Shown piece after piece: positions 4,935-55,439 of a DNA stretch of 64,000 nucleotides (positions within the stretch are counted from its first letter, which is position 1; each line of letters begins with the position of its first letter). A program made the translations under genes and the position numbers. The notes under the pieces were generated by a model that was given only the letters and a program-made list of their open reading frames with translations, was not told where the DNA came from and did not search any database. The stretch is taken from IMG/VR virus record IMGVR_UViG_3300029240_000001. The stretch is one strand, 5' to 3'. The stretch is from a virus.

Positions 4935-4939
4935 TCGCA

Positions 4940-5158
4940 ATGGGATGGAATAGTACAAAAGATAAACTCCCTCCAGACATGGTAGATGTTCTTGGCTATA
5001 CAGATGCAGATAAATTCAAAGTCGTATCCATTAAGAATGGAGTTTGGAACACTTATATGAATGTACTTTATTGGATGTGGCTTCCTGATAAACCAGATAT
5101 TAAGTCAGAAGAGCCAACAAAAAGACGTGGTAGAAAGAAGGCGACAGATAAAACATGA
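4940..5158 (+). CDS. Hypothetical protein (DUF551-like N-terminus, basic tail)
   Basis: 72-aa ORF; W..TKDKLPP motif; ATGA overlap with the next gene. Confidence 0.45.
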   Translation: MGWNSTKDKLPPDMVDVLGYTDADKFKVVSIKNGVWNTYMNVLYWMWLPDKPDIKSEEPTKRRGRKKATDKT

Positions 5159-5442
5159 CAAAAGTTGATCAATATAAATGTGATTATTGTGGAGAAGTTT
5201 TCAATGATTATGACAAGTGCCTTGCACATGAATATGAGCATCAGAATGATGATGTGTCTAGAGCAAAATATTTAATCAAATATAATCTAAGAAAAGATCT
5301 TTGTGACTATTGTGAGCATAGCTATTTTGTATATGGATGCGAGATTGATTGTCAGTTTAAGAAAAACTGTAATTACAAAAACAATTATGAATTATTTGCG
5401 CCAGTTAAACCATTCCATGACAAAAGTATTAAAGGTTATTAA
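5155..5442 (+). CDS. Small Cys/His-rich protein (C2H2-like finger at N-terminus)
   Basis: YKCDYCGEVFNDYDKCLAHEYEH plus further CxxC pairs. Confidence 0.5.
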   Translation: MTKVDQYKCDYCGEVFNDYDKCLAHEYEHQNDDVSRAKYLIKYNLRKDLCDYCEHSYFVYGCEIDCQFKKNCNYKNNYELFAPVKPFHDKSIKGY

Positions 5443-37760: not shown

Positions 37761-37773
37761 TAATTTTGTGTTA
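37760..37773 (-). promoter_or_regulatory. Recurrent motif copy (TAACACAAAATTAT on the minus strand) overlapping the TMP stop codon
   Basis: Plus-strand ATAATTTTGTGTTA. Co-oriented with late transcription and immediately 5' of the hairpin. Confidence 0.4.
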
Positions 37774-40700
37774 TCTAACACGATTATAAAGCTTTTTATT
37801 GATATTTTTCATATAATTGTCCATCTGATCTTGTACCGCTTTAGCGATGTTTGGAATCGAACTATTATCCGCTCTCTCTACGTGAACAAGGCTACCAATC
37901 TCCATATTCAACTCAATATTATTATTAATAATATGAGGAGCACTAACAGTAGGCTTTGATTGCTCTAGAACACTAGATGGATCTAGTTTGCCCCATTCCA
38001 TAAGTCTTTCTGTTAGGTCTGCAGGAATAATTCCTGTTCCTTTCTTAATATAAGAAAGCCTACCTGCACCGTCTGGAACAAGCTGCAACTCTTCACCAAG
38101 CTCGTCAAGGAATGCGAACTGGTCTTTATCAATTGATTTAGCTCCACTACTGTAACCCTCTATGTCGCTCAGACGCACCCAGCCAGTATAGCCACCATTT
38201 CTACCAATGAGAACTTCCGAATCTGTTGCCTGATAAACTGTAAATGTAGAGCCCGGAACCCAAGACTGCATGCGTGTTCCATTACCACCATTTCTGGAGA
38301 AATTAGTTGCTGATTTCTTAACAGTTACAGACGAACCCTTAGTCGGGGCTGCTGGAGTGGATGGTTCAGTAGCTGGGGACTGCTGTGGAGTCGAAGGAGT
38401 TGGCGGAGTGTACTTCGCACTCTCAGTCGAATTCTTCTTGTTATTTGTTGCCTTAATTATGCTATCTGCGGTCTTATCAGCTTCAACTTGTAAATCTACA
38501 AGCTCTTGTTTTAATGCGCGTAATTGCTCAGTAAATGCGCTCGCAGAAGTGTCTAATTGCTCCTGATAAGTGCCAATGGCATCTACGCCTTCTAGCCAAG
38601 GTTTAGTTACAGAATCAGAAAGAGTGATTCCATACTTATCTGCGATTTCAGATAGATTTTGTGCTAACGAATCTGTATTAGCAGCGATAACAGCATAGCT
38701 ATCTTGAATGACTTGGTTCTCATTCTTCAGCGATTCATCAAGTGCATCCATTTCGTCCTGCTTGTTGTCTTGATAATTCTCAAGAGACTTGTCTAGCGCC
38801 TCTTGCTGCTTTTCAACACTATGGTCATAATACAGGTCGTTTAACTCGTCTTGCGCTTGCTTCAGTTCGGCTTCTAATTTTTTCTTCTGTGCAATCGCGG
38901 AGGCTGAATTGTCGCCAGAAATGACTGCAAGCCTCTTCTGAATGTCTGCAATATTCTTCTGCTGCTCTGCGACCTGCTTGGAAAAATCATTTGCTTCTTT
39001 CTGAAGGCTAAGTTCATCTTTCTTTTTGTCTATAAGCTCTGAATAGGCGTCTATCTCTTTTTGCAGTCCGTCCTTGACGGCTTGAACACGAGTTTTATTC
39101 AAATCAATAATAGACTTCTTCGCGGCCTCTTGCGCCTCAATTGCATCCCATTGATTCTCTTTAAGCTCGGCAAGTTTCTCGTTATACTCGTCCGTACTAT
39201 ACAGTCCAGCGGCATAATCCTTCTCAAGACGTGCAATCGCTTCGCCGTATTGTTCAACCTTAAAGTTTGCGGCTTCTAACTGCTGTGCAAGTAGACCAAG
39301 AGCAGTAACGCCATCTTTCGTCCAATTGCCGAATTCGTCTACTACTTTCTCCTCATCAGAAACCAAGTTATACAAATGAGAAAGCTCAGAATCAACATTA
39401 TCAATCTTATCAATTAACTTATCAAGATTATCCCAGTAAAGGTCGTTAATACTATTCTGGAAGCCTTCGATGTCTTTCTTGCATGAAAGGATTGAATCAT
39501 CAACATCATAAATGGCGTTAACCATTTCATACCAATCGTCAGTTCCAACTCTAACGTCTCCAGAAGCAACAGCCTGATCTAGGACACTTTGTAGCGAAGC
39601 ACGTTTGTTATTTAGGTCTTCAATCTGCTTCTGAGAGTCTTTCATTAATTCCTTATAGAAATTCTCAGAAAGTCTTTCGCCTGCTTCGTCGAGAAGATCC
39701 ATCTCGGCCTGAATGAGGTTTGAGTGCTGTTCGACTAAACCAACAATATTCTCAAAGTCATCCGCAATATCCTTTAGCTGTTCAAGACGTTTAGCAGAGA
39801 TTTCAGCGATAGATTCTAGATAGCTATTCTCTGCATCTTCTGCTTTTGTAGACCATGTACGATATTCTTCAATGGCATCAGCAATTTCGCCTTCGCTTTC
39901 CCCGATAAAGTCTTTAATTGCGATAGCGCCGTTCTTTGCCATTTCTTGATACTCGGCGGGAACTTTAGACAGTAGCTCCGTTGCCTTCTGGTTGTAAAGC
40001 TCTGCTGCAGCAAAATATGTAGATGCTTTCTGTTTTTCTGCTCCGACTAAGTCATCATATAAGCTGTTCTTATCTCCAATTTGAGAAGTATCGTCAAGGA
40101 AATTCTCAATTCTATTGGTCATATGAGTAATTGCCTTCTCGATTTCTTCAAGCTTATATTCAATAAAGTCAATGGTTTGCTCTGCATCATCGGCTGCGTC
40201 AGATACATCACTTGCCGCATCAGATAGGTCACTAGCAGCATCACTTAAGTCCCAACCCATTTGAGACCAGTCTTTGTCACTGCCATCTCCCCACGCAGCA
40301 TTCGCTCCAGTGCCAGTTTTCTTTGTATAAGTACCATAATTCCAGTGAGCATTGCCTTTAGCAAACGACAAGCCGCCAGTGTATGTCCCACGAGACGTGT
40401 ACCCATTCTTTAATAACTCTTCTGTCTGCTTGTGGTTATAGATTATTGCACCCTTCGGCAAATCAAGCATTTCCGTGCCATGTTCTCCAACAGTATAATA
40501 AACGCCCTTGTTTGCGTCTACTACTAGTTCACGACCAAGCTCGCCTACAATGGCATTGTGCTCATTTGCTTTTAATCCGGGCTTCTTGCCTGAATGCGCA
40601 TTGCCTTTTGCCAAAGCATTTCCAAGCGCACTAGACGCGCCGTCAGGATTATAGCCACTTCCGCTTTTTGCATCTTCACGACCTTGTGTAAATTTGCTCT

Positions 40701-43700
40701 TTAGGTTGTTCCAAAAATTGCTCGCTTGTGTACTAATCCAAGAAGCAGCCGATTCCCAAAGACCATTAATGGCACTAGGAACAGTTTCTGTGAAGAATGT
40801 AGAAATGCCAGTTTTAATATTTTCTAAAGTAGTAGGTACTGTTTCTGTAAGAAATGTCCCGACTCCTTCCCAAAATTCATTCCATTTTGTCGGAAGCGTT
40901 GCTGTAAAGAATTCTAAAATCTTTTCTCCCGCTGTTACCAATGCTGGGCCAATCACTTCATCAACATAAGTGCCGACACTCTCCCAGAAAGAATGCCATT
41001 TTTCAGGAACTGTCTCGGTAAAGAATCCATACACGCTATCCCACGCCGCGCTTAAGGCTGGCGCGATTGTGCCATCAATATATTCACCAACGCTAGTCCA
41101 AAATTCACTCCATTTTGTAGGAATTGTTGTCGTGAAGAACTCAACAACTTTATCTTTCAAAGCAATAGCGTCTTCTTTTAAATTGTTTAATTCTTCGCCA
41201 ACGCCATCCCAAAATTCATCCCATTTTTCTGGAATAGTTTCTGTAAAGAATGTAACTACCGCATCTTTAAGATCGCTTGCCCATTGTTTTACTTTGTCGA
41301 AATCTTCACTAACATTATCCCAAAACTCTCCCCATTTCTCAGGGACAGTCTCTGTAAAGAATTCTTCAACTTTCGCAGATATATATCCAACTGCGTAAGG
41401 GATGTCGCCAAGGAATTCCCCAACACTTCCCCAAAACTCGTTCCATTTTTCCGGAATCGTTTCGGTAAAGAATGTATTAACGCCTTCTTCTACATTAGCA
41501 GCCCAATCTTTTACTCCGTCAAGACATTCGCCAACACCGTTCCAGAACTCATCCCATTTTTGAGGCAATGTGTCTGTGAAAAATGTATTTATGTCTTCCC
41601 ATAGTCCTTGCGCCCATTCTTCTGCACCAGATAATTTGTCTCCAATACCGCTCCACAAATTGTCCCATACAGTTGGCAATGTTTCTGTAAAGAAAGTAGA
41701 TATGCCACTCCAAATATTGTTGGCGAATTGCTGTACCTCAGCAACCACCTCGTCCACTAATGCGTTCCAACCTGCAATTACTTGATCCGGGCTTTGTGCT
41801 TCAAATCCCGTAACGTTGGAAGTAGAAGTTGTGCTTGCACTTTTTTCAGTACTCGTCGAAGTTGTACCAGAGCTTGTTTTTGTTGCATCAGTTGTTTTCG
41901 TATCTTGCTTCTTGTTTTTGTCTGGAGATTGAATGGCATCCAAAATGTTGTCAAGAACTTCTTTGACCTGAGTTATTCCATCAGTTATTGGGTCAACTTC
42001 TTGATTAGTTAACACCTCAAGTTGTTGTTCGTCATTTTTTAAATCAACATATTCTTGAATCTTCTGTTGCTGATCTTCGTCTAATTCAAGCGTTGCCGGA
42101 ATTTTCCAAACTCCATCCTTATCTTGCTCTAGCTTTGGAACTACTTCAGTGACTAGAGTGGCATTTTCTTCTTTCCACTGATCAATTTTAGATTGGACAT
42201 CAGTTAATACAACCTGAAAATCCATTACGGTTGGCTGTTCTAGGCCATATTTAATTTTTAAAGCTTCTGCTAACTGCTCTTTTGCTTTTTCGAGCTCATC
42301 CGTCTTTATTTGAATCTCTTCATCCGAAGCTCCAGCATCTTTTAACTCTTGTAATTCTCTTGTAAGTGTTGATACATTTTCTTTTGCAGTATCAACGGTA
42401 TTGTTTGCATCGATCCAAGCTTTTGTATTGTCAACAATTGCCTGCTGTGCATTATTCAACGAATCTGTAGCGCCATCAATTTCTTGCTGAATCGCATTAT
42501 ATTCTTCTGCATTTTCGCCAAGTGGATCTTTACCAGCCCTGAAAAACTCTTCTTGCTTCGCAAGTGCCTTGTCCAAAGAGTCGGTAGTATCTCTAAGTTT
42601 TTTGTCAAGTTCTGTCATAGTTAGGTCAGAAACGATATCTCCCCAACTTGCATCATATTTTGACAGCTCTGTCAACATTGCAATAGTTGCGGCCTTTGTT
42701 AATCCCATTGCATTTGCAAGGTCGTCAACGCTCTTTATACTACTATCAAGAGTAAATGTGCCGTCCGCATTTTCAATAAAAGCACTAGCTTCTTTCGCGT
42801 CGGCAATAAATGCTTCTATGTTCTTTAAGCCTATTGAAAAATTTCCATCATCATCAATAGTGAAATAGTCTGCAAACTTTGAGTTTTCAAAATAATCATC
42901 AATGGCGTCAAGACGTTCTTCAAAAGTTTTACAGTTTGCAATAACGCTCGGAGGAACTAATGCCTCACATGCCGCCTTAAATGCTTCCGTCCCAACTTTG
43001 CCACTCAACAATCCATCGCTAATGGTCTCAAGCATTTCGACCATTGAGTCGCCATACGCCACTTCCGAATCTCTGTTTTTAGCATCCTCGAATTCATCAT
43101 ACGCATTGGTAACATCTGATAATTTCAACTCTAAAATTGAATATTCTTTAACTGCATTCTTGAGTGCTTGTATCTGACTACGCAACGCGCTAATATTATC
43201 ATAAGTTGCTTTTGTAACATATCCATACGCTTTGTAATCCGCATACATTGCCTTAACAGCCTGTTGTAGTTGTTTTACAACTTTTGTATACTGCGACTGA
43301 CTTTGTGCTTTCGCCGCACTTACTGTTGCCTTTTGTTCTTTTTTCTTCTGTGCAATTAATGCTCTTAATAGACGTGTATTCTTAACGACCTTGCCATTCG
43401 TAGTATCAATTGCGTCACCGAAGCTCTCTTCGCCAACAGTTACATCTCCAAGATACTCTTGGAGTGCAGTATAATAATCGTCAGAAATCGCTTGCCCGTC
43501 AAATGTTATGTCATTAACTGTCTGTAACACTGACGCATACGAATCATAAGCAGAAGTAAGGCTTGCTATGTCGCTAACAGCCACAGAAGTGGCTTCACTA
43601 GTCTGTTGCATAGCACCGCTAATGTTCAAGAAATATCTTGCAACATCTTCTGCACTAATTCCAAGAGAGTCTAATTGTACTTTAAGCTGTGGATTTTCAG

Positions 43701-45465
43701 CAATTAAGCTCTCAACCTCTCCAGTGACTCCTTCAATAGCAGATTCGTAATCTCCGAATTTATCAACGTCAACATTGATCTCTCCAGATTCAATTTTCGC
43801 GTTAAATGCTTCTTGGAATGCTTGTCCTGCCTCAGAACCACGCTCGCCGAATAAGCGGTCAAGAGCAGACTCTTTTGCTCCAGCAGAACCAAACATGATT
43901 TCTGCTCGATCATTGTAATTTTGCATCGAGCTAAGAAGACCATTTACTGCCTTTTGTGCCTCTGTTAAATTGTCACCATCAAACCATTCCAAGTCGCTGA
44001 CGCCATATTCTTCTTCTTTGCCTTTCATAAACTCGTCCCAATTGGACTGTGCGTCGGCATAATCTTCTTGCGCAGACTCTAAATTCTTTTCTAGTTTTTG
44101 GAACTTTTTGCTATTGGTGTCCATACCAGAGTCTAAGGAATCCTGTACTTCTGCTTCCGCTTTGTCTAGTTTATCTTTGGCGTTTTTTACTTTACCTAAT
44201 TCGTCTTCAAAATTGTTTGTATCTTTAAGATTAAGCGTGCCAGTAGGTCGCGTCTTGAAATCTTGATCGGTATCCAATGCGCCCTTTACAGCTTCTGCTT
44301 GCTTGTTTTTAGCACGTTCTTCTCTTGCTTCTTCCAAGCGAATTTGACGTTCAAGTTCGGCATTTTGCTCTTTTAATTTGTCAAGCTCTTCTTGCTCCGT
44401 AAGAGTTAATGTGCCTTTAGATTCGAGTTCTTCTATACGGCTCTTCGTAGTCTCTAGTTCGGAATTTAAGGAATCGAGATTAGATCGGATGTTTTTTAAA
44501 TTCTCAGTTTCTTCTTCTAATTTTTTAATGAAATTTTTATGAGTGGGGCCCCATGCCACATAAGCAGCAATAAGAGCGCCTACAGCTACTGTAACTGCTG
44601 CAATTATAAGCCCAACAGGGCCTAATGCTACATAAATTTTTGCTATTGCACTTAGAACTGCTGTTTCTAGGCTCTTAACTGCCATTTTTAACACGCCAGT
44701 TGCTCCGGCAGCAGCATATTCTGTCGCAACTGCTTCGATTATCCTTGCAATAAATTTGGCAAATGCAGTGTCTGCAAGACCTAAAGTCTTAATTAAATTA
44801 TTAATTGAATCGCCAATATTAGAAATGGAGAATCCCCTAATGGCCGTGACAATTTTCCCAATACGTTCTGCCAACGACATGCCTTCCGTGGCTTTTAAAA
44901 ATGCTTTTAGTGGGGCAACTACGCCCAACAATATAAGGATAGTGCTTTTTAGTACGCCAACTTTATCTACAACGCTTACCAAACCAGTTCCAACATCTAC
45001 AAGGAATTTAGTAACATCAGCATTTATAAAATTCATCCACATGGTTTGAACAGCATTCGTAAACTGATCAATCTTTCCTTGAATACTATCCAAGTATTTT
45101 TCATTTTCGGCCATTGCACTGCCAGCAGAATCTGCAGATGTTTGCATCGCATCTTCTACTAAGTCAAAATTCTTAATAACGGCGGATAAAACATTTGCTT
45201 GTCTTTTCCCGCCTAGCAATTCTAGTGCGGCTGCTCGATTTACGTCCGTCATGTCGTCCCATACTTGAGACATTTCACGTAAAATTTCTGTAGTGTTCTT
45301 GAATGTATTCTCATCGAGCATATTGTCAACTTTACCGCCTGTTAAAGCTAACAATTTTTTCTGCAGTTCTGAGACGCTATTGGCCATGCCATCAACGTCC
45401 TCACCTGCATCTTCTAATTCTACCTTGGCTCCGCGAATACGAAGCGATAAGGTTTTCATTGCTGT
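37771..45465 (-). CDS. Tail tape-measure protein, exon 3 (2564 codons + stop)
   Basis: Begins TAMKTLSLRIRGAK... (continuation of the conserved TMP core), followed by TM helices, long coiled coils, FFTETxP..W..FW repeats and a C-terminal SH3-like segment. The track ORF starts at the internal Met (45459). Confidence 0.8.
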   Translation of the reverse strand, partial: TAMKTLSLRIRGAKVELEDAGEDVDGMANSVSELQKKLLALTGGKVDNMLDENTFKNTTEILREMSQVWDDMTDVNRAAALELLGGKRQANVLSAVIKNFDLVEDAMQTSADSAGSAMAENEKYLDSIQGKIDQFTNAVQTMWMNFINADVTKFLVDVGTGLVSVVDKVGVLKSTILILLGVVAPLKAFLKATEGMSLAERIGKIVTAIRGFSISNIGDSINNLIKTLGLADTAFAKFIARIIEAVATEYAAAGATGVLKMAVKSLETAVLSAIAKIYVALGPVGLIIAAVTVAVGALIAAYVAWGPTHKNFIKKLEEETENLKNIRSNLDSLNSELETTKSRIEELESKGTLTLTEQEELDKLKEQNAELERQIRLEEAREERAKNKQAEAVKGALDTDQDFKTRPTGTLNLKDTNNFEDELGKVKNAKDKLDKAEAEVQDSLDSGMDTNSKKFQKLEKNLESAQEDYADAQSNWDEFMKGKEEEYGVSDLEWFDGDNLTEAQKAVNGLLSSMQNYNDRAEIMFGSAGAKESALDRLFGERGSEAGQAFQEAFNAKIESGEINVDVDKFGDYESAIEGVTGEVESLIAENPQLKVQLDSLGISAEDVARYFLNISGAMQQTSEATSVAVSDIASLTSAYDSYASVLQTVNDITFDGQAISDDYYTALQEYLGDVTVGEESFGDAIDTTNGKVVKNTRLLRALIAQKKKEQKATVSAAKAQSQSQYTKVVKQLQQAVKAMYADYKAYGYVTKATYDNISALRSQIQALKNAVKEYSILELKLSDVTNAYDEFEDAKNRDSEVAYGDSMVEMLETISDGLLSGKVGTEAFKAACEALVPPSVIANCKTFEERLDAIDDYFENSKFADYFTIDDDGNFSIGLKNIEAFIADAKEASAFIENADGTFTLDSSIKSVDDLANAMGLTKAATIAMLTELSKYDASWGDIVSDLTMTELDKKLRDTTDSLDKALAKQEEFFRAGKDPLGENAEEYNAIQQEIDGATDSLNNAQQAIVDNTKAWIDANNTVDTAKENVSTLTRELQELKDAGASDEEIQIKTDELEKAKEQLAEALKIKYGLEQPTVMDFQVVLTDVQSKIDQWKEENATLVTEVVPKLEQDKDGVWKIPATLELDEDQQQKIQEYVDLKNDEQQLEVLTNQEVDPITDGITQVKEVLDNILDAIQSPDKNKKQDTKTTDATKTSSGTTSTSTEKSASTTSTSNVTGFEAQSPDQVIAGWNALVDEVVAEVQQFANNIWSGISTFFTETLPTVWDNLWSGIGDKLSGAEEWAQGLWEDINTFFTDTLPQKWDEFWNGVGECLDGVKDWAANVEEGVNTFFTETIPEKWNEFWGSVGEFLGDIPYAVGYISAKVEEFFTETVPEKWGEFWDNVSEDFDKVKQWASDLKDAVVTFFTETIPEKWDEFWDGVGEELNNLKEDAIALKDKVVEFFTTTIPTKWSEFWTSVGEYIDGTIAPALSAAWDSVYGFFTETVPEKWHSFWESVGTYVDEVIGPALVTAGEKILEFFTATLPTKWNEFWEGVGTFLTETVPTTLENIKTGISTFFTETVPSAINGLWESAASWISTQASNFWNNLKSKFTQGREDAKSGSGYNPDGASSALGNALAKGNAHSGKKPGLKANEHNAIVGELGRELVVDANKGVYYTVGEHGTEMLDLPKGAIIYNHKQTEELLKNGYTSRGTYTGGLSFAKGNAHWNYGTYTKKTGTGANAAWGDGSDKDWSQMGWDLSDAASDLSDAASDVSDAADDAEQTIDFIEYKLEEIEKAITHMTNRIENFLDDTSQIGDKNSLYDDLVGAEKQKASTYFAAAELYNQKATELLSKVPAEYQEMAKNGAIAIKDFIGESEGEIADAIEEYRTWSTKAEDAENSYLESIAEISAKRLEQLKDIADDFENIVGLVEQHSNLIQAEMDLLDEAGERLSENFYKELMKDSQKQIEDLNNKRASLQSVLDQAVASGDVRVGTDDWYEMVNAIYDVDDSILSCKKDIEGFQNSINDLYWDNLDKLIDKIDNVDSELSHLYNLVSDEEKVVDEFGNWTKDGVTALGLLAQQLEAANFKVEQYGEAIARLEKDYAAGLYSTDEYNEKLAELKENQWDAIEAQEAAKKSIIDLNKTRVQAVKDGLQKEIDAYSELIDKKKDELSLQKEANDFSKQVAEQQKNIADIQKRLAVISGDNSASAIAQKKKLEAELKQAQDELNDLYYDHSVEKQQEALDKSLENYQDNKQDEMDALDESLKNENQVIQDSYAVIAANTDSLAQNLSEIADKYGITLSDSVTKPWLEGVDAIGTYQEQLDTSASAFTEQLRALKQELVDLQVEADKTADSIIKATNNKKNSTESAKYTPPTPSTPQQSPATEPSTPAAPTKGSSVTVKKSATNFSRNGGNGTRMQSWVPGSTFTVYQATDSEVLIGRNGGYTGWVRLSDIEGYSSGAKSIDKDQFAFLDELGEELQLVPDGAGRLSYIKKGTGIIPADLTERLMEWGKLDPSSVLEQSKPTVSAPHIINNNIELNMEIGSLVHVERADNSSIPNIAKAVQDQMDNYMKNINKKLYNRVR
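40740..41720 (-). repeat. Nine tandem 37-38-aa FFTETxPxKWxEFWxxVG repeats in the tape-measure protein
   Basis: Read from the translation. The same periodicity produces the spurious plus-strand ORFs with reiterated ...TVSVKN... (40694-41785). Confidence 0.75.
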
Positions 45466-45778
45466 CGATCTATTACTTTCCCACGAAAACCAAATGGTAC
45501 TGACCGATTATGTAATCGGCGGCAAGGTCTTTCGGCCTTGCTCTACGATTTTATTTTTAGATTATTGTCGTAGTCTAGACTGGATCTTCACCCTCATTCC
45601 CGTCATTATACGGAGTAGGGGAACAGCGGAACCTGTTATGTTACCATAAAAGGTCTTACAGTCGTTACGGATACTTTGCACACTGCAAAGTCTTTCCTCG
45701 GTCTTGACCATCTCTGGCTTTTAACCGATATAGCTGTTTTCTTTCAATATATTACTATATTGTTAGGCTATTATGTTA
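45466..45778 (-). mobile_element. ORF-less group I-like intron (313 nt) in the tape-measure gene
   Basis: Follows an exonic U. P1 candidate UAGGU|...GCCUA. Starts UAACAUAAUAG (in-frame stop) and ends ...AUAGAUCG. Has an R-like AGACUACGA element and several hairpins. Shares blocks and co-varying helices with the upstream intron. Confidence 0.75.
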
Positions 45779-46100
45779 ACCTACAGATTCTGGATTTTGC
45801 ACAACGCTATTGGCGGCTGTAATTAACCCAATAGACTCATCAAGTGTATTGCCAGCCTCTGCCATAGCACTAGCAGAACGCAATAGCGCTTGTCCAATAC
45901 CTGATGAACTGATTGCAAAGTGGTTTCCCACCTCGTTGAATTTATCTACGATTCCCATAGCATTAGACGCTTCAATACCAAATCCGTGCATTGTAGAAAT
46001 GATACTGTCAGAAGCCTCACCAATATCGGCTAGGTCATCACCAACGTTATAATAAACGGAAGCGGCCTTTGCCAAGTCAGATGCTTGCTCAATGTTATAT
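45779..46100 (-). CDS. Tail tape-measure protein, exon 2 (322 nt)
   Basis: Encodes (L)YNIEQASDLAKAASVYYNVGDDLADIGE...ITAANSVVQNPESVG, the middle of the TMP core domain. The track shows only the part from an internal TTG (45776-46075). Confidence 0.8.
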
Positions 46101-47292
46101 CCTCACTTTGTTACTATTTCCACTAAAGGAAATGGGTAGGTCATTTCTGCCTACCTCTGCAATTTCATTATTAGATTATAGTTGCAGGTCAGATCATCTC
46201 TTCATCTTAATAAGATGTCCACCATACGCATAACCGTTACCGATTACGCTGTGATCGTTACAGGACTTAAAACATTTAATATAATATTCTCAACTTCATT
46301 TGGCCTAGATGTATATGGGATATATAAAATGCCAATATTCTTGCTATGGCAATATTCTTTTTTAATTTTGTCTCTGTATACTCTATTCTCATAAGCCTCT
46401 TCGCCACCAAAAAAATCAATTGGCTCAAAATGCTGTTTTCCTTGATATTCTATTACCATATGATAATCTGGCAAATAAAAATCAAATGGAAGTGGCAAAA
46501 TATTTCTGCAGTCATCCCATGTAAATTCTCGCTCAAATTTGATATTATATTTTTTTAGAATGGTTTCTACTAAAATTTCCCCCGAGCTAGATGACTGACA
46601 CCCACAGCTAATAGTGCATCCCCCAACTAAATCTGAAACAGACGCCAATACTTCATTTCCACAATCACATTCACATCTCCATAGTCGTTTATAATTACCC
46701 GGACTACCTTTCCGTTTTACATATTCTTTTGCCACCAACATGCCAAATCTTTGATTTGTTAAATTATAAGCTATAGAATCATAATATTGCTTAACTAAAC
46801 ATCCACAACTAGAAACTCTTCCTCTAATAAGATCTCCGGAAGAACATTTTATATTTCCTCCACACTCACATTCGCAATACCACATAATACAACCATTAGA
46901 TGCTCTTTTGTCCAATTTGTATTTAACAATAAGTTTGCCAAATTGTTTCCCAGCCAAATCTTTTTCTTTTCCTTTATTTAATGAACCACTCGCCGTTTTT
47001 GTGCTACCGTTTCTTAATGCATCTAATCGAACTACTACTACAACACCATTTTCATTTATACATTCGCAATATGTGTGTTTTCCTCCATTATATCCATACA
47101 ACATTTTTGTTACCACTAGTTCTCCATATTGTTCTCCAACAATATTTATTCGTCTTGGCATTTTATCACCTCCTATTCATATAATTTATATTAAATGTTT
47201 TACATTACCCACGGGATTGTCCATCTCTGGAGTTTCCCCGTTTTAAGATGGATGTTTACCTATATGTCGCCATACAGGGGGCCTATTAATTA
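46101..47292 (-). mobile_element. Group I-like intron (1192 nt) carrying a homing-endonuclease ORF, in the tape-measure gene
   Basis: Follows the exonic U of ...AGGCU. P1 candidate GGCU|...GGCC. Starts UAAUUAAUAG and ends ...AAAGUGAGG. The non-ORF parts (131 + 143 nt) align with the 313-nt intron. Confidence 0.75.
46244..47161 (-). CDS. Intron-encoded homing endonuclease: three CxCxC...(S)CGC zinc modules + C-terminal PD-(D/E)XK (Vsr/DUF559-like) nuclease
   Basis: Own SD (AGGAGGTG). Repeats GxxFGxLxV...WxCECxCG...SCGC. C-terminus LPFDFYLPDYHMVIEYQGKQHF...KDKIKKEYC resembles the D...E-x-K/Q restriction-endonuclease-like core. Confidence 0.7.
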   Translation of the reverse strand: MPRRINIVGEQYGELVVTKMLYGYNGGKHTYCECINENGVVVVVRLDALRNGSTKTASGSLNKGKEKDLAGKQFGKLIVKYKLDKRASNGCIMWYCECECGGNIKCSSGDLIRGRVSSCGCLVKQYYDSIAYNLTNQRFGMLVAKEYVKRKGSPGNYKRLWRCECDCGNEVLASVSDLVGGCTISCGCQSSSSGEILVETILKKYNIKFEREFTWDDCRNILPLPFDFYLPDYHMVIEYQGKQHFEPIDFFGGEEAYENRVYRDKIKKEYCHSKNIGILYIPYTSRPNEVENIILNVLSPVTITA

Positions 47293-50200
47293 AGCCTTGC
47301 GAAATCTGCTGTAGCATTAGTAAAATCTTTAACGGTAGAGCCGATCTGCCCAGCAGTTTTAGACGCATCTTGTAAGAATCTCTTATAAGTTTCATCAGTT
47401 TCATCGGTAACTTTCTTTAATTCTGTTAACGCTGCGTCAATTTCTCTTACATATGTAATACCTTGCTTAATTTGAGCAACAGTTTTATACACCATATTTG
47501 CGCCAGTAAAGTATGTAAGAATTTCACCAGACTTTTTCTTAACATTGCTAAAGAAAGAGCCAAGCGTACTACTTGCTTTGCCCATATTCTTAGCGGAAGC
47601 ATTAATAGCATTTCCCGCTTGATTAAACGATGCAGTTAGTTTTTCTACTTCGCCATTGCCATTCTTTATTGTAAAAGTAACCTTGGAATAGTTGTCAGCG
47701 AATTGAATAGATTTTTTATCTAGCCCATCAAAAGAATTAGCAAATGCTTCTAATTCACTTCTTCTGCTTGCTTCGTCGCCAATATCAAAGCCATCAGAGA
47801 CCGAACGAGTGATATTACCAACTTTGTTTTTCATCTCTTCGGACTTCTTAATGATATTTTCAATTGCTTTGCCATATTTATTAAATGACTCAACTGCACT
47901 ATCAAACTCTGCGGCCTTTTGCTTACCCAAATCTGAAGTGATGTCTATGTTTGCAAGCTCTTTTTGCAGTGTAATTATTCTTTGATATGCTTGCTCGTAT
48001 TGCTGTAATTGAGTAGTAAGCCCGGAGGCATTGGCATAGCCTTTGCTATTAACGCTATTAATTAACCCAGTATGCTTTGTTTCGACTTGTCCGACAACAT
48101 CTGCCCCATATGAGGTATTGCTTTGCTTTGCTGAGTCCTTCTTTACCTTTGCGTACTGTTCAAAATCGCTCATGAGCTGCTTTGTCGCAGCACTCAACCT
48201 TTGCATATCATCTTCTGACACTTTACCAAAGGCTTCTTCAGACTTTGTTAACTCTTGAATCTCCTTTGACAGAGCTTCATATCTACTCTTTAACTGTCCA
48301 AGATCACTATTTTTATCTACGAAGACTTCCGTATCAATTTTCCTAAAAGCAGAAGATAGCTTTTGATTTGCATCTATTAATGTCTTATAATTATCTAATT
48401 CTTTGTAACCGCCGCCAGAGTTTTCAGAACTGCCAGTTGAAGACGTTTTCTTCTTCGACTCTTTCTTTGCAACTGTTCCATTTCCAAGTGATTCAGCAGT
48501 TTTATCCGCGCTATCTTTTACATTTTGGTTCGCATTAGCAAAATCATTTTTAGCTTGAGTGGCGGATGCAAAAGCTTCACTAGCCTCTCTAGCCTTTTCT
48601 ATTTCTTTTTCTATAGCAACCGCAGAAGCTTCCGCACTTTCCTTAACTCTTGCATTAGCTTCAACAAATTGATTTTTTTGTTCCGTTGCAGCCGCAAATG
48701 ATTCCTGTACACCACTATCACTAGTTACTTCTGGTGCGATTGCTGCAGGTTCTCCTGTGCTTTGACCACTAGCAACCTCCTCAGTTGCTGCCTTCGAAAT
48801 CTTCGACACATCGCTCTGATTTTGTTTTTCTTTTTCTTTTGTAATTTGCTGTTGTATTGCCAATTGCTGTTTTGTTTCTTCATTTTGCTGCTTCTCTACT
48901 GTTAGCTCTTGCTCTGCAGCCTCTGTCCCTTTTTGCTTCGTTTCTGTCGCACTGCCTAATTCTGCTTTTGCTTCAGCAAGCTTGGTTTTTAATTCATCAA
49001 TTACAGAAGACAAATTTTCAATTTTTGCTCTATATTCATCTACGACATCATTTGAAGTCATATTATCGACTTCGCTCATCGGGACAGAATTATCTAGAGC
49101 ATTTTGGATGTCGTAATAACCATTCTTCCACGAATCTAAAGCACCTTCCATACGAAGGATTTCTTCTTCCAATTCTTGTACTTGTTTTTGTGCCGCGTCA
49201 AGCTCGGAAGCGTCAACAGGATTTGTCGGAATAGCATTTAGTTTTTCTTTAAGAGCGGCAATTTCTTGCATAAGCTCTTTTTCTTTTTCAAGCTGCGCGG
49301 TTTGATTGTCTGTTTGATTAGACTGAGTTGAAGGTTGCCCAGACTGAATCTGATTAAGCTTTTCTTGCGCGGTAGTCTCTTCGTTGATAGCCTCAGTAGT
49401 TTTTTGATGAGACTCTGCTGCTTGCGCCTCGATTTCCTTAATTCTAGCTACGCTTTGATTCCAAGCATTAGTAGAATCAATTTCTCCACTCTCGAACGAG
49501 CTAAAAATATCTTTAAACTTGTCCCAATCGGCGGTGTGCGATGGATTCAATGTTGCCAATAAACTTTTTAATTTTTCAATTGGTGCAACAGAATTTTCTC
49601 CATTCTTTTGTATTTCGGCCAAATAAGATGACAGCTCTGGTAGCTGTTCCATTGTATATGTCTTAACAGTCGAAGCCAACCCATTGTCTGTAAACGCCTT
49701 ATCTAATGCTTGATTAACTTTTTCGTTAAACGCAGCAATTAACTGTTCATACGAAATACCAGCTTGTGCCGCTTTTTCTTCTGCTCCTTTTATTAATCCA
49801 ACTTCCCCGTCATTATATTCCATGAGAGGAAATTCTTTTGTAGCTGCTTTTAAATTTTGAGAGTAAGATTCTCCAATTTTGATGGCCATTTCTTTAGAAA
49901 TGCCAGTAAAATCAATTGTTTTAACAACACCATCTGCAATGATACCATTGATTTTTGTACCTTGGTCATAAAACAACTTGGTAAATGAATTAATATCCGA
50001 CGGCGTAAATGCACTCATTCCATCTGGGTGATTGTGCAAAGACATTACGATATTTTCTTTTAGATTATTGACAAGTTGTGATACTATCGCATCTGTATCT
50101 ACCTGAAAATCCTTCCCGGAAAAAGAGCTTACTACTTTGTCCGCTCCAAAAAGCGTCATAGACTCTTTTGCGTCGCCGCTACCTTTTGAATAACCAACCT

Positions 50201-51662
50201 CTTGCCTAGACGCAAGATTTAATAATTCTTGCAGCTCTCCAGCTACACCGCCAACTTCCTTTGCACTTTTTTGCGCGGCCATAGGAATTTCAACATTAAG
50301 TAATTCACAGATTTTAGAAAGTGCCTCGTCTCCGGTAATATCTCCAAAGTCTAAATCCTCAAATATTTGGTCAATGGAAGCTCCAGCTTTTTTTGATGCC
50401 TGAGAAATTTCTTTAATCTCATCGACCAGTGCGATTAATTTATCAGCGTTTTGATTGTCTTCATCTACATCTGCGCTTGACGACAACGAAACATATTCCT
50501 TAACTCTTTTATTTAACTCGTCATATAAAGAAATCTTTTTTTCTTCCGAAGCAATCTCTTCATTTTCTACAAAAGTATTTGAATTACCAATATCTTTAAG
50601 ATTGTTTATTTCAGAATTGATATCTGCGATTTTTTGTTGATACTCGCTCTTGATTTTGTCAAGCATAGCGCTATGACGTTTATAAACATATTCTAGGTCG
50701 TCGGCATACATATTGTTTATATTAGTGCCGATCCATGTCATTCCCGGTGATAATATCCCATTATTACGCGCATTTATTCCATTATTTATTGTATTCTTTA
50801 ATTTTGTTGCAATCTCTAGATATTGCAATAAAGTATTTTTATATGATTCATCATCAGTCTTAATTGGGGAAATTTCATCTAATGTAGCCTTTAATTCTCT
50901 TGCTTGGCTCGCTAAAGATTTTAATTCATCATCTGCGGTTGCCTTTTTGAGCCCAGTTACTTTTAATTTACTTTTGTTCGGAAACAATAAATTTAAAGTG
51001 TTTTGATACTCTGTCTTTTTATCGTTAAGATCATCAATTTGCTGTTGTATCTCGGTGGAAATTTTGTTGCCAGTTTCTTTTATGTTATTAACAGCTTCAT
51101 CTCCAGCAGACTTAATACTATCTCCAACTTTAGACAGATCAATCTCGCCAAATGCGATATTTAATTTACCATTTAGCTCGCTGGCATATTGGATTAATGC
51201 ATCAAACTGTTCTTCAACACTTTTAGTGTTAAAAAGGTCTAAGTCAATTTGTTTATCAATGCCAACGTTCTTGAGAATGGTATTTAACTGCTCTGCGTAG
51301 CTCGATAATTCTTTTGTCGCACCTTTGTCCTTTAAATTAATACCGCTAAAACCTGTAAAAACATTTTTGGACAACTCTGAAATCTGAGACATCTGTTCAA
51401 CCATTTTGTCAAAAGACTTCATATATCCGCTATTGAGCTTATCTCCAAGACCTGCTTTGACGGAATCCAAATCTTTCCTAAGTGCCTTAACAGCATCGTC
51501 CATAGCGACAAACTGCTTAATAAAGTTATTAAGATTGCCACGCTTGCCAATGTTTGCTAAAACTCCATCTACCTGCTCTGCTTGAGTCTTACACGCGACA
51601 AGACTGCTCATAAGATCATCAATACTATATTTAATTTTCGAAGTATAACTCGCTTCTGCCAA
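47293..51662 (-). CDS. Tail tape-measure protein, exon 1 (1456 codons + 2 nt)
   Basis: TTG at 51662, 8 nt after AGGAGG (the track uses GTG at 51671). Long coiled coils, an internal LHNHPDGMSAFTPSD motif, and ends ...ELKKVTDETDETYKRFLQDASKTAGQIGSTVKDFTNATADFARL, the start of the TMP core domain. Confidence 0.75.
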
Positions 51663-51679
51663 AAGAATCACCTCCTACT

Positions 51680-52863: not shown

Positions 52864-53364
52864 TTAATCTTCGCCCCAAACTTCTTCGTTGGCGAAATTA
52901 TAAATTTTATGCGCCGCAACTCCTATGCAAATTGCTTCACATTCATCTTCTGATAAATCAAGACCAAAATTTTCTTTTACATAATCAATACTCTGTTGCT
53001 TAAGCTCTTGGCGTTTTACTTTCGCCCCCTGAGAATATCCTAATGCTTTGCGCCATTGGCTTGGCAACAAAATATGCACATTGACATTATGAGCTTCCGC
53101 ATAACCAATTATCATACCAGCCAATCTTGCCAAAATTATCATAGTCGCTGGGTTCGATTGTTGTTGCACATTTTCTAGAACAAGTTTCTCTGGTTTAGAC
53201 TTTTTAATAACCTTCCAAAGTTCTTTCGCCATTTCAAAAGATCTTTTATCTGTTTCTAATTTGCTCTTGTTCATATCAACAACGCCAGATTCTATATATT
53301 GACCGTTTTCAAATATGGCATAACCAGAACGACGTGTGCTTTGATCAAAACTTATGACACGCAT
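52864..53364 (-). CDS. RuvC-like Holliday junction resolvase
   Basis: VISFDQSTRRSGYAIF (catalytic Asp), LVLENVQ (Glu) and C-terminal EDECEAICIG acidic residues. Confidence 0.8.
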   Translation of the reverse strand: MRVISFDQSTRRSGYAIFENGQYIESGVVDMNKSKLETDKRSFEMAKELWKVIKKSKPEKLVLENVQQQSNPATMIILARLAGMIIGYAEAHNVNVHILLPSQWRKALGYSQGAKVKRQELKQQSIDYVKENFGLDLSEDECEAICIGVAAHKIYNFANEEVWGED

Positions 53365-53409
53365 AACAATTCCTCCTTTCCGAGAGATTCATATTTGCAC
53401 TAATTTTAA

Positions 53410-53440
53410 ATATAAAAAGAAGAAACCATGTGGCTTCTCC
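53410..53440 (-). terminator. Intrinsic terminator after the lysis cassette
   Basis: Minus strand: GGAGAAGCC-ACAU-GGUUUCUUC stem (with G-U pairs) followed by UUUUUAUAUUU. Confidence 0.55.
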
Positions 53441-53469
53441 TTTAAACTACGATATACAATTTTTTGTTA

Positions 53470-54417
53470 TTACCTGTATAGAGCATCTACTCTGTTTTGT
53501 ACTATTTGATAGTCATATCCCGCTGCTTCAAGGCGTGCTTGACGTTCTAAACCATTTCCCCATTCGCCTCGATATACCTCCAATACAATTTCATCTAATG
53601 TTTTACCTGAAGCAACAACTGATTCAGTATTTGGAACAAGAATCTTTTGTCCTATATAAATAACATTAGGATCAGAAATTCCATTGTAGGAAGCAAGTTG
53701 TTGATATGTAATGCCATATTTTGTGGCAATGTCAGAAAGAGTGTCACCAGATTTTACAGTATAAACTGTTTCTGTTTGACTTTGCGAAAAAGTTAATCCA
53801 TTTTTACCAGCTTCTCTAATCAATGCAGGATAATCAAAATAAGAAATGTTCATATCAACGCATCCAGAAATACCATTGACAATTCCAGAACTAGAATACT
53901 GCCAAATTCCATAGTCCTTGTGATACTGACATTCAGAATTATATTGAGCAATCCATCTTGCCTTAGTGTCATACCAAGAATCAGTCAGATATGCCTCATT
54001 CCAATATAAATTGGCATAAATACCAACCCAATAACCAGCGTCTTCTAAAATGCCAACAAATTTTTTAGACATTTGAAGAATTAAATCTTGACTACATTTC
54101 CCAGTAGTATTAACGTCTTCTAAATCATAATAAACGGGATATTCAAGTTTACGACCTTTTATCAATCTAAGTACATGTGTTGCTTCCGAAGCAGCTTTTT
54201 CTACTGTATCTGCATAACTGTACAGATACACACCATAAGGTATACCAACTCTTTCGCATTCTAAAGCATTCCTTTTAAACCAAATATCATCTTGTTCTTC
54301 TAAGTTCATTCCATAGCCACAGCGAAGAATTGCAAAATCAATTTCATCCTTTTTTACTGCATCCCAATCAATTTGTCCTTGCCATTCGCTCACATCAACA
54401 CCTTTTAATTTTTTCAT
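53470..54417 (-). CDS. Endolysin: GH25 muramidase + LysM + CW_7 (Cpl-7-like) domain
   Basis: GVDVSEWQG...DFAILR GH25 N-terminus. LysM: [31 protein letters not shown]_7-like: [31 protein letters not shown]. Confidence 0.85.
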
Positions 54418-54439
54418 ATTATCCCTCCTTTTTATTCAT

Positions 54440-54472
54440 AAAAAATGAGGGAGTGTATTGCTGCACTCCCTC
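54440..54472 (-). terminator. Intrinsic terminator between the two endolysin genes
   Basis: GAGGGAGTG / CACTCCCTC 9-bp stem. On the minus strand it is followed by ATTTTTT. Confidence 0.65.
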
Positions 54473-54512
54473 GCCCATATAACTACTTCATATAGGCTAT
54501 TTGTTTATAAAA

Positions 54513-55439
54513 TTAATTCTCTTTATTGTCCGTACTATGATTAGAATCAAACATTCTCTGACAGACAACCAACATGCGCAGCATATCATATGATATATCT
54601 AGTTTGCCATTACCAGTGCCAGCAATTGCACCAATGTCGATTAAATGCTGCACAGTATCACGCGCCCAAGATGGAATATCTTCAATTGTCTCATAATGCT
54701 TATTGCATGCATCAAACATATGCTTCATGACATACAGCATACGTATCATATCAGCAGACAAATCAAGATTGCCTCCACCAGTGCCAGAAATTAAACCTTC
54801 ATCAATCATTTCGCTAATAGTTCCTCTTGCCCAGCTAGGAATATCATCAATAGTATTGTATCTCATTACGTCTTCCTCCTCTTCATCATTTCCATTATTT
54901 TTGTTCATGGCCTCATATACATCCTGACGGAACCCGTCCATAGTGTAACCCATGCCATATGTATTCCACAGAAGTTCTGGATCCGCATGGTTGCTGGCCA
55001 CACCTCTACGATGACCTTCTGCATGACCAATAATCACACCGTCTTCCAGTGGATTAAGCACATAAGTGTTGCAAAGCTGTGCGAATAATTCCACGGCTGT
55101 GTGATATGTCCCCGCAATCTGTTCAGCAGCTTCCGCATAACTCATTCCAGAGCTAGGTTCCGTCATTTCGATGCCGATATGGGTATTATTTGCAGCGCCA
55201 CCGCAGTGCCATGCTCTCATCAACCAAGGCAATGTCTGATATACAGAGCCATCTGCCTGTATAAATGCATGTACGCAAACTGATTGACCACCCGGCTGAT
55301 ACTGGTTAAAGTTACGAGCAAACACCGCAGCACTAGGCTGTGGACATCCAACGCTATGCAACATCAAACCACTTGGAGTAAATGTTGAACCAATCTTATA
55401 ACATTTATTTTGTGTCGCAAACGCTTCAATAATTTCCAT
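54513..55439 (-). CDS. Endolysin: N-acetylmuramoyl-L-alanine amidase (Amidase_2/PGRP type) with two C-terminal ~55-aa wall-binding-like repeats
   Basis: LMLHSVG...VHAFI...AWHCGGAANNTHIGIEM. Duplicated I(D/E)DIPSWAR.T....ID.G.I.GTG.G.LD.S.DM.RML segments (SLH-like). Confidence 0.85.
   Translation of the reverse strand: MEIIEAFATQNKCYKIGSTFTPSGLMLHSVGCPQPSAAVFARNFNQYQPGGQSVCVHAFIQADGSVYQTLPWLMRAWHCGGAANNTHIGIEMTEPSSGMSYAEAAEQIAGTYHTAVELFAQLCNTYVLNPLEDGVIIGHAEGHRRGVASNHADPELLWNTYGMGYTMDGFRQDVYEAMNKNNGNDEEEEDVMRYNTIDDIPSWARGTISEMIDEGLISGTGGGNLDLSADMIRMLYVMKHMFDACNKHYETIEDIPSWARDTVQHLIDIGAIAGTGNGKLDISYDMLRMLVVCQRMFDSNHSTDNKEN

What the first reader, a model, noticed from the sequence alone, without database searches (positions are those of the whole stretch)
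45466..47292. Tape-measure gene split by two related group I-like introns
Three co-linear minus-strand reading frames (51662->47293, 46100->45779, 45465->37771) break inside what reads as a single conserved TMP core domain. Joining them gives ...KDFTNATADFARL|YNIEQASDLAKAASVYYNVGDDLADIGE...ITAANSVVQNPESVG|TAMKTLSLRIRGAKVELEDAG... and restores the frame exactly: exon 1 is 1456 codons + 2 nt, and exon 2 is 1 nt + 107 codons. Each intervening sequence follows an exonic U that can form a U-G wobble in a short P1 with a guide about 10 nt inside the element (GGCU/GGCC and UAGGU/GCCUA). Each opens with an in-frame UAA, ends in G, and has no frame continuous with the exons, so these are not inteins. 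The two elements share sequence blocks: UAAnnUAAUAG, CCAGAGAUGG, AUAAUCUAA and GAAA(g/u)UAGUAA. They also contain helices that co-vary: CUACG...CGUAG versus CUGCA...UGCAG, and GCAAGG-CCGAAAGA-CCUUGC versus GGUAGG-CAGAAAUGA-CCUACC. AGACUACGA resembles the group I R/P7 core element. I could not fold the full P3-P8 core by eye, so subgroup and exact helices remain unassigned.
Basis: partly seen in the sequence, partly recalled or inferred. Interest (0 to 1): 0.85.

Follow-up and report, generated by a model that had tools for sequence, protein, structure and literature searches.

The report
Two group I introns split tape-measure gene
A gut-phage tail tape-measure gene is interrupted by two self-splicing group I introns, one carrying a homing endonuclease; this is real, but introns in tape-measure genes were already described in 2008, so it is a new example rather than a new kind of thing.

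Summary
Three co-linear minus-strand frames join into one 4132-aa tape-measure protein (TMP). One TIGR01760/PF10145 alignment bridges both junctions.

Near-identical metagenomic relatives carry natural intron-minus alleles. These confirm intron 2 (45778→45466) exactly. They also correct the 3' splice site of intron 1 by one codon: the terminal G is 46104 and exon 2 starts at 46103. This restores the conserved Gly in "RLGYN".

I folded the full group I core for both elements: P1 with a U·G pair, P2, the P3/P7 pseudoknot, P4–P6, P7.1, P8 and P9–P9.2. On 13 family members, 91% of cells pair (about 40% in slid controls), and 51 of 69 pairs show compensatory changes.

Intron 1 carries a 305-aa Vsr-like (EDxHD-type) homing endonuclease in P6. 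Intron 2 has no ORF.

Rfam RF00028 does not recognise this lineage, not even its compact ORF-less members.

Related group I introns at several TMP sites were described in Bacillus cereus-group prophages (Tourasse & Kolstø 2008). This is therefore a new member of a known kind. No RNA evidence for splicing is available.

The parts
47293..51671 (-). TMP exon 1. It ends ...GCAAGGCU; the last U pairs with G in P1.
   Evidence: The 5' splice site is fixed by the U·G pair in P1 and by the intron-minus alleles L157/L159.
46104..47292 (-). Intron 1 (1189 nt): a group I ribozyme with a homing-endonuclease ORF inserted in P6. The terminal G is 46104 (corrected from 46101).
47208..47292 (-). Intron 1, 5' ribozyme half. 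IGS GGCC 47283-47280; P2 47278-47259; P3 5' strand UCCAUC 47252-47247; P4 47241-47236 / 47216-47211; P5 with GAGA loop 47231-47220; P6 5' strand 47210-47208.
   Evidence: Coordinates. Covariation. Weak RF00028 alignment of the same helices.
46244..47161 (-). 305-aa homing endonuclease gene (Vsr-like / EDxHD-type catalytic domain, three N-terminal Cys-rich repeats). Shine-Dalgarno AGGAGG at 47174-47169. The last codons (SPVTITA*) overlap the P6 3' strand, J6/7, P7 and P7.1.
46104..46264 (-). Intron 1, 3' ribozyme half. P6 3' strand 46264-46262; J6/7 GUAAC; P7 GAUCA 46256-46252 / UGAUC 46196-46192; P7.1 46249-46228; P3 3' strand GGUGGA 46223-46218; P8 46217-46203; P9 46187-46157; P9.1 46155-46135; P9.2 46133-46116.
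45779..46103 (-). TMP exon 2 (325 nt). It encodes (L)GYNIEQ...NPESVG, the middle of the TP901-type TMP core domain.
45466..45778 (-). Intron 2 (313 nt): an ORF-less group I ribozyme. IGS GCCUA 45768-45764; P2; P3 AACAGC 45738-45733 / GCUGUU 45627-45622; P4-P6a; P7 GACUG 45663-45659 / CAGUC 45582-45578; P7.1; P8; P9; P9.1; P9.2. The terminal G is 45466.
   Evidence: The boundaries match the I2-minus alleles L019/L137/L143/L145/L147 exactly.
37771..45465 (-). TMP exon 3. It starts ACAGCAAUG... (TAMKTLSLRIRG...).

Best explanation
Proposed mechanism.
- The tape-measure gene of this siphovirus-type gut phage (hosts probably Lachnospiraceae or other Clostridia) is transcribed as one pre-mRNA containing two group I introns of the same IA-like lineage.
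- Each intron folds into a ribozyme. P1 pairs the last exon bases with an internal guide 10-14 nt inside the intron and presents a U·G wobble. The P4-P6 and P3-P8 domains, with a P3/P7 pseudoknot and an extra P7.1 stem, build the guanosine-binding site in P7.
- An external guanosine attacks after the exonic U. The freed exon then attacks after the terminal intron G (46104 for I1, 45466 for I2).
- The ligated exons encode one 4132-aa TMP.
- In-frame stop codons at the start of each intron halt ribosomes on unspliced RNA.
- Intron 1 carries, in the loop of P6, a gene for a Vsr-like (EDxHD-type) homing endonuclease with its own Shine-Dalgarno site. In mixed infections this enzyme would cut intron-less TMP alleles and copy the intron in by recombinational repair.
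- Intron 2 has no endonuclease. It is probably inherited passively, or carried along by co-conversion or a trans-acting nuclease.

Shown: the colinearity, the exact insertion boundaries, the RNA structure with covariation, the nuclease fold and its conserved catalytic residues, and the presence/absence polymorphism.

Inferred: actual splicing, endonuclease activity, and the route by which intron 2 moves.
For: Colinearity of the protein
- One open frame results after removal of both elements.
- TIGR01760 gives one stretch over profile positions 6-301 at 102.6 bits. PF10145 gives one stretch over 4-200 of 201. phrog_4211 scores 1e-81. All of these bridge both junctions.
- 95 phage records match at least 80% of the 408-aa query segment that spans both junctions in one place; Sundance aligns without a gap at either junction.

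Natural alleles at 93-98% identity
- L019, L137, L143, L145 and L147 lack I2. They read ...GTAGGT|AC... exactly as predicted.
- L157 and L159 lack I1. They read ...GCAAGGTTAGGATATAAC.
- The 90 nt flanking the I2 site differ between the window and L019 at 18 positions. All 18 are synonymous (sequences).

RNA structure
- The minimum-free-energy fold of I2 has z = -4.5 and reproduces P2, P4-P6, P7, P7.1, P8, P9, P9.1 and P9.2.
- On alignment A1 (13 sequences), 91.3% of cells pair, against 38-47% when partners are slid.
- 51 of 69 pairs have changes on both sides, and 0 of 500 shuffles reach the observed values.
- Six of six P3 pairs and three of five P7 pairs are compensatory. The two invariant P7 pairs (G-C, A-U) are the expected guanosine-site pairs.
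- RF00028 aligns the 5' half of I1 to P1-P6 with the same helices.
- J8/7-P7' (GAUGAAGAGAUGAUCUG) and J6/7-P7 (GUAACGAUCA) resemble the model consensus gAAGAUAUAGUCu and GUUCAaAGACUA.

Homing endonuclease
- It matches PHROGs annotated as homing or intron-encoded nucleases.
- It has DNA similarity to 'group I intron-associated VSR homing endonuclease' genes of Staphylococcus phages.
- E195, D227, E238, H244 and D264 are invariant in 32 homologues.
- The AlphaFold2 model has pLDDT 87. Foldseek hits Vsr (1cw0, 1vsr) with probability 1.0 and TM 0.55.

Precedent
- Related IA1/IA2 introns at three sites in TMP genes of B. cereus-group prophages (PMC2504315).
Against: - There is no RNA or protein evidence for splicing.
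- RF00028 reaches only 14.5 bits (threshold 50) on I1 and gives no hit on I2. It also misses the compact ORF-less relatives.
- I found no convincing P10 or P9.0 pairing.
- The subgroup (IA1, IA2 or IA3) is unassigned. Only one extra stem lies between P7 and P3'.
- The endonuclease has no sequence-level match to I-Bth0305I or to any PDB chain, and no Pfam or NCBIfam family.
- The family alignment was collected with sequence patterns taken from the two introns. Conservation of those motifs in that set is therefore partly by construction. The helices that co-vary lie outside the patterns.
Confidence: 0.9

Rival explanations
1. The gene really is split. The intervening DNA is a free-standing homing-endonuclease cassette plus a non-coding spacer that is never spliced out. 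The TMP would be made as three polypeptides that assemble, as in some phage genes split by endonuclease insertions.
For: Each piece ends at a stop codon. Exon 3 has an ATG two codons in, and exon 2 has a TTG start. No RNA data exist. RF00028 does not validate the ribozymes.
Against: The breaks fall inside one conserved domain; exon 2 alone covers TIGR01760 positions 92-175. Neither the 99-aa middle ORF nor exon 3 has a recognisable ribosome-binding context (read). The intervening RNA has a full group I fold with 51 of 69 compensatory pairs. Element 2 has no ORF at all, so it is not a nuclease cassette. Intron-minus alleles encode the uninterrupted protein.
Confidence: 0.04
2. The elements are group I introns that have lost activity. 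The TMP would then be a pseudogene in a defective phage or a decaying prophage.
For: Splicing is untested. Intron 2 lacks an endonuclease. P10 is weak.
Against: All core helices are intact in both introns. The same two-intron allele recurs at 97-98% identity in several long viral contigs: L053 and L156, from contigs of 83-157 kb. The endonuclease protein is found identical on 131 contigs. The exons flanking I2 differ from an I2-minus allele only at synonymous sites, 18 of 18. The whole 4132-codon frame is open.
Confidence: 0.05
3. The interruptions are read through or removed by another route: inteins, translational bypassing, stop-codon recoding or group II introns.
For: Stop-codon recoding is reported in gut phages (bioRxiv 10.1101/2021.08.26.457843, listed).
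Against: No frame of either element is continuous with the exons, and all three stop codons occur. At 313 and 1189 nt the elements are far longer than known bypass gaps. The other genes in the window are long ORFs under the standard code. No group II or other Rfam family was hit.
Confidence: 0.01

Closest known systems
Group I introns TMP-IVS1/IVS2/IVS3 in tape-measure genes of Bacillus cereus-group prophages (Tourasse & Kolstø 2008, PMC2504315)
   Same: They sit in the same host gene, with several insertion sites in one TMP. Related introns have adapted to different sites through different P1/IGS sequences. Some copies carry homing endonuclease genes and some do not. The introns are present or absent among related phages, and they belong to class IA.
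   Different: This is a different phage group (gut Clostridia phages known only from metagenomes) and a different TMP (4132 aa). There is no detectable sequence similarity: blastn with the I1 3' domain and with the whole 2151-base intron region found no intron-RNA match in 50,697 GenBank phage records. However, the B. cereus-group prophage introns themselves were never fetched or compared. The endonuclease is Vsr-like. Direct homology of the insertion sites was not tested.
Multi-intron phage genes such as Staphylococcus phage Twort orf142 and the Twort-like terminase/lysin introns with 'VSR homing endonucleases'
   Same: Several small group IA-type introns lie in one late or structural gene. 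The endonuclease ORF shares 69-78% nucleotide identity over about 90-170 nt with intron-encoded proteins of Twort-like phages.
   Different: Only the endonuclease shows similarity, not the ribozyme. The host gene and the insertion sites differ.
I-Bth0305I, prototype of the EDxHD (Vsr-like) homing endonuclease family (Taylor et al. 2011, PMC3239194)
   Same: Both are encoded in a phage group I intron. Both have a C-terminal Vsr-like catalytic domain with conserved acidic and His residues. The Asp-to-His spacing of 17 residues is identical (D196/H213 versus D227/H244). Both have a modular N-terminal DNA-binding region.
   Different: There is no sequence-level match. The N-terminal region here is three Cys-rich beta-rich repeats (CxCxC...SCGC) rather than NUMOD2/HTH motifs. 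The ORF sits in P6 rather than P5.
Rfam RF00028 (Intron_gpI)
   Same: The helix order is the same, and the consensus is recognisable in P4/P5, J6/7-P7 and J8/7-P7'.
   Different: Scores are far below the gathering threshold, and the family is missed even in ORF-less form. RF00028 is known to miss whole subtypes (PMC6125680).

Membership tests
Group I intron | The 5' exon ends in U, which forms a U·G wobble in P1 with an internal guide sequence. | tested here: met
   I1: GGCU (47296-47293) / GGCC (47283-47280). I2: UAGGU / GCCUA. The splice-site pair is U·G in 11 of 12 family members, while the other P1 pairs co-vary with the exon.
Group I intron | The intron ends in G (omega-G). | tested here: met
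   G46104 (I1, corrected) and G45466 (I2). Both positions are fixed by intron-minus alleles and by the constant 5-nt spacing after GUAACA in the family.
Group I intron | Conserved core with P3-P8 and P4-P6 domains and the P3/P7 pseudoknot. | tested here: met
   91.3% of cells pair, against about 40% in slid controls. P3 has 6 of 6, P4 5 of 6, P5 3 of 4, P7 3 of 5 and P8 6 of 6 pairs with changes on both sides. The MFE fold of I2 has z = -4.5.
Group I intron | Match to the Rfam RF00028 covariance model at its gathering score (50 bits). | tested here: not met
   The 5' half of I1 scores 14.5 bits, E = 1.5. I2 gives no hit at E <= 10. ORF-less relatives give no hit. The same search scores an unrelated intron in L139 at 67.7 bits, so the tool works. 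The model is known to miss subtypes (PMC6125680).
Group I intron | Guanosine-dependent self-splicing with exon ligation. | not testable with these tools
   This needs in vitro transcription with GTP, or RT-PCR / RNA-seq.
Group I intron, class IA | Extra stem(s) P7.1/P7.2 between the P7 5' strand and the P3 3' strand. | tested here: inconclusive
   One extra stem with a GNRA loop is present in both introns, and 8 of its 9 pairs are compensatory. No second stem was found. Subgroup CMs (GISSD) were not available, so IA1, IA2 or IA3 remains open.
Mobile intron (homing) | The element is present or absent at an identical site in otherwise near-identical alleles. | tested here: met
   I1-/I2+ in L157 and L159. 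I1+/I2- in L147. I1+/I2- with a third intron in L019, L137, L143 and L145. I1+/I2+ in the window, L053 and L156.
EDxHD / Vsr-like homing endonuclease | Vsr-like nuclease fold with conserved E, D, H, D catalytic residues. | tested here: met
   E195, D227, E238, H244 and D264 are invariant. Foldseek hits 1cw0/1vsr with probability 1.0, TM 0.55 and rmsd 3.5 Å.
EDxHD / Vsr-like homing endonuclease | Sequence homology to I-Bth0305I and an N-terminal NUMOD2/HTH region. | tested here: not met
   No PDB sequence hit with the single sequence or the profile. The model shows three beta-rich Cys-rich repeats instead.
TP901-type tape-measure protein (TIGR01760 / PF10145) | One continuous match to the domain model above the curated cutoff. 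| tested here: met
   The spliced product scores 102.6 bits (cutoff 28.8) over profile 6-301, and 70.7 bits (cutoff 33.2) over PF10145 4-200. The exon-1 tail alone gives no hit, and exons 2 and 3 alone score about 33 bits each.
Intein | The insert is in frame with the host protein and has no stops. | tested here: not met
   Stops are present in all frames at both borders.

The most novel reading that the evidence does not exclude
These introns may belong to an abundant, uncatalogued lineage of IA-like group I introns in phages of gut Clostridia. The lineage has a characteristic conserved A/U-rich L9 loop (UAUAAUCUAA...GAAAU), and the standard Rfam model does not detect it. It seems to colonise at least three sites within about 430 nt of the TMP core domain. 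ORF-less copies may spread by co-conversion with a neighbouring endonuclease-bearing intron. Splicing efficiency could then also set the amount of full-length TMP.
Probability: 0.3. Interest if true: 0.45.

Novelty: new member of a known kind. Interest (0 to 1): 0.3.

Why it matters
- Annotation: automatic pipelines call this gene as three fragments plus a "restriction enzyme" (the name given in nr). The real product is one 4132-aa tape-measure protein, so recognising the introns corrects the gene model.
- Detection: RF00028 misses a widespread intron lineage in gut phages completely. Intron surveys of viromes that rely on RF00028 will therefore undercount introns.
- Study material: the set of natural alleles (I1±, I2±, and a third site) within one phage population is good material for studying homing and co-conversion.
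- Limit: it does not change what is known about group I introns. Several related introns in one TMP gene were described in 2008.

Tried and rejected
- Rfam at gathering threshold on the whole window gave nothing.
- Rfam at E <= 10 on the region, on I2 alone and on the ORF-less relative L024 gave only a weak hit to the 5' half of I1.
- blastn of the whole region against GenBank phages matched only endonuclease-gene segments.
- blastn of the I1 3' domain gave no match.
- megablast of 24 kb around the gene gave no match, so there is no close isolate.
- Pfam and NCBIfam on the endonuclease gave nothing.
- PDB sequence searches with the endonuclease and with its profile gave only chance hits.
- I looked by eye for P10 and P9.0 pairings and found nothing convincing.
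It is J7/9 plus P9.
- nhmmer with the family profile found no further copies in the window.
- I did not build a covariance model. The roughly 275-position model would probably exceed the calibration limit, and it would match its own sequences by construction.
Full report
**Observation**

The minus strand between 51671 and 37771 holds three long frames: 51671->47286, 46075->45776 and 45459->37771. A 305-aa ORF (47161->46244) lies in the first gap. Removing 47292-46101 and 45778-45466 gives one open frame.

**One protein, not three**

I took a 408-aa conceptual product centred on the two junctions.
- It matches PF10145 in one stretch (profile 4-200 of 201, 2e-19).
- It matches TIGR01760 in one stretch (profile 6-301 of 349).
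- It matches phrog_4211 (TMP) at 1e-81.

The pieces alone behave like fragments of one domain.
- The exon-1 tail gives no hit.
- Exon 2 covers TIGR01760 positions 92-175.
- The start of exon 3 covers positions 174-301.

tblastn finds 95 phage records that match at least 80% of this segment in one place. The Brevibacillus phage Sundance TMP (43% identity) aligns without a gap at either junction. The gene is followed by Dit and by minor-tail and tail proteins, which is a normal siphovirus tail module.

**Natural intron-minus alleles**

Pattern scans of IMG/VR brought in contigs that are 93-98% identical to the window over this gene.
- L019, L137, L143, L145 and L147 lack intron 2. They read ...GAATCYGTAGGT|ACWGCMATGAA..., exactly the predicted junction 45779|45465.
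- The 90 nt around that site differ between the window and L019 at 18 positions. All 18 are synonymous, so the exons are under purifying selection in both allele types.
- L157 and L159 lack intron 1. They read GCAAGGTTAGGATATAAC, which encodes A R L G Y N.

The sequence fits if the intron ends at G46104 and exon 2 starts at A46103 (GCAAGGCU|AGGAUAUAAC). Three further results support this correction.
- Sundance has KLGYNLEQAS.
- TIGR01760 rises from 89.5 to 102.6 bits when the Gly is included.
- All family members examined keep 5 nt between a conserved GUAACA and the terminal G.

The spliced TMP is therefore 4132 aa.

**RNA structure**

The minimum-free-energy fold of intron 2 (z = -4.5) already shows P2, P4-P5, P6/P6a, P7, P7.1, P8, P9, P9.1 and P9.2. 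By hand I added P1 and the P3 pseudoknot, and I found the same plan in intron 1 once the ORF is removed from the P6 loop.

I then aligned the two window introns with 11 distinct relatives, either ORF-less or with the ORF trimmed out (alignment A1), and counted pairs for the named structure.
- 91.3% of cells form standard pairs, against 38-47% with partners slid by 1-3 columns.
- 51 of 69 pairs carry a change on both sides.
- 0 of 500 shuffles reach any observed measure.
- P3 (the pseudoknot) has 6 of 6 compensatory pairs. Examples are UCCAUC/GGUGGA, GACAGC/GCUGUC, GUUGGC/GCCAAC and AACAGC/GCUGUU.
- P7 varies at three pairs: GAUCA/UGAUC, GACUG/CAGUC, GACCA/UGGUC and GAGUA/UACUC. Its first two pairs (G-C, A-U) are invariant, as expected for the guanosine-binding site.
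- The splice-site pair is U·G in 11 of 12 sequences, while the rest of P1 follows the exon sequence.

The ribozymes of I1 and I2 are 51% identical. They are members of one lineage, not a recent duplication. I2 is closest to L155, which sits at the same TMP site. I1 is closest to L122 (84%), also at its own site.

**Rfam**

RF00028 gives no hit at gathering threshold. At relaxed thresholds it aligns only the 5' half of I1 (P1-P6, 14.5 bits, E = 1.5). It gives nothing for I2. It also misses the compact ORF-less relatives. In the same run it scored a different intron in L139 at 67.7 bits. Nawrocki et al. reported that RF00028 found nothing where subtype models found 95 introns (PMC6125680). The negative result therefore reflects the model, but the formal membership test is not met. 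The J6/7-P7 and J8/7-P7' sequences resemble the model consensus.

**Homing endonuclease**

- The ORF has a strong Shine-Dalgarno site (AGGAGG, 47174-47169).
- It matches PHROGs annotated as homing or intron-encoded nucleases.
- Its DNA is similar to 'group I intron-associated VSR homing endonuclease' genes of Twort-like Staphylococcus phages.
- It has 1183 homologues and no Pfam domain. The identical protein occurs on 131 contigs and is named 'restriction enzyme [Caudoviricetes sp.]' in nr.
- E195, D227, E238, H244 and D264 are invariant in 32 homologues. The Asp-to-His spacing equals that of I-Bth0305I (PMC3239194).
- An AlphaFold2 model (pLDDT 87) has three N-terminal Cys-rich beta repeats. 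Its C-terminal domain matches Vsr (1cw0, 1vsr) with probability 1.0 and TM 0.55.
- There is no sequence-level hit to any PDB chain.
- The conserved C-terminus SPVTITA is encoded by the P6 3' strand, J6/7, P7 and P7.1. Protein and ribozyme therefore share these bases.

**Distribution**

The family profile hits 121 of the fetched IMG/VR loci. Five MAG contigs also carry the pattern; four are titled Lachnospiraceae, Clostridia or Faecalimonas and one 'uncultured bacterium'. There is no blastn match in 50,697 GenBank phage records. Many relatives carry two or three family introns in the same TMP region.

**Comparison with what is known**

Tourasse & Kolstø (2008, PMC2504315) described group I introns at three sites in TMP genes of B. 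cereus-group prophages. These include two related IA2 introns that had adapted their P1 to different sites, copies with and without endonuclease genes, and patchy distribution among phages. The present case has the same biology in a different phage group and a different intron lineage.

**Verdict**

It is a new member of a known kind. Splicing itself remains inferred.

Noticed in passing
L019:4852-5328 (also L137, L143, L145, L163); equivalent window position about 45922/45921: Close relatives of this phage carry a third intron of the same family (477 nt) inside exon 2, at NEVG|N(H/N)F. The window lacks it. The 143 nt between that site and the I2 site are only 82% identical to the window, against 96-98% in the flanks. 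This looks like a co-conversion or recombination tract.
   Followed up: partly
window 37771-51671 (-): The spliced tape-measure protein is 4132 aa, which is very long for a TMP. At the usual figure of about 1.5 Å per residue (my own knowledge) this predicts a tail of roughly 600 nm. No Pfam domain was found in exon 1 or exon 3 alone.
   Followed up: no
window 46181-46163 and 45567-45549 (-); family members: The 19-nt loop of P9 (A/C-U/A-AUAAUCUAA-N-AAU-N-AAAU) is nearly identical in both introns. It is also recognisable in family members found through a different motif (UAUAAUC...GAAAU), while the P9 stem co-varies. It may be a tertiary-contact element, for example a receptor for one of the GNRA loops of P2, P5 or P7.1. 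This was not tested.
   Followed up: partly
L024:4656-4892 and 4934-5210; L132:827-2018; L150:2095-2760: Other viral contigs carry two or three family introns packed within about 0.3-1.2 kb of what appears to be the same TMP region. In L024 two introns are only about 40 nt apart.
   Followed up: no
L139:2971-3278: A different group I intron on the same viral contig as a family member is recognised by RF00028 at 67.7 bits. The contig therefore carries introns of at least two lineages.
   Followed up: no
window 52864-55439 (-): A RuvC-like Holliday-junction resolvase gene and two endolysin/amidase genes lie immediately upstream of the putative chaperone ORFs and the TMP, inside the tail module. 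This is an unusual gene order.
   Followed up: no
window 46244-47161 (-): The N-terminal two thirds of the endonuclease is three repeats of a Cys-rich module (…CxCxCG…SCGC), each predicted as three strands plus a helix. The repeats are probably zinc-binding DNA-recognition units. They have no Pfam family and no PDB match.
   Followed up: partly
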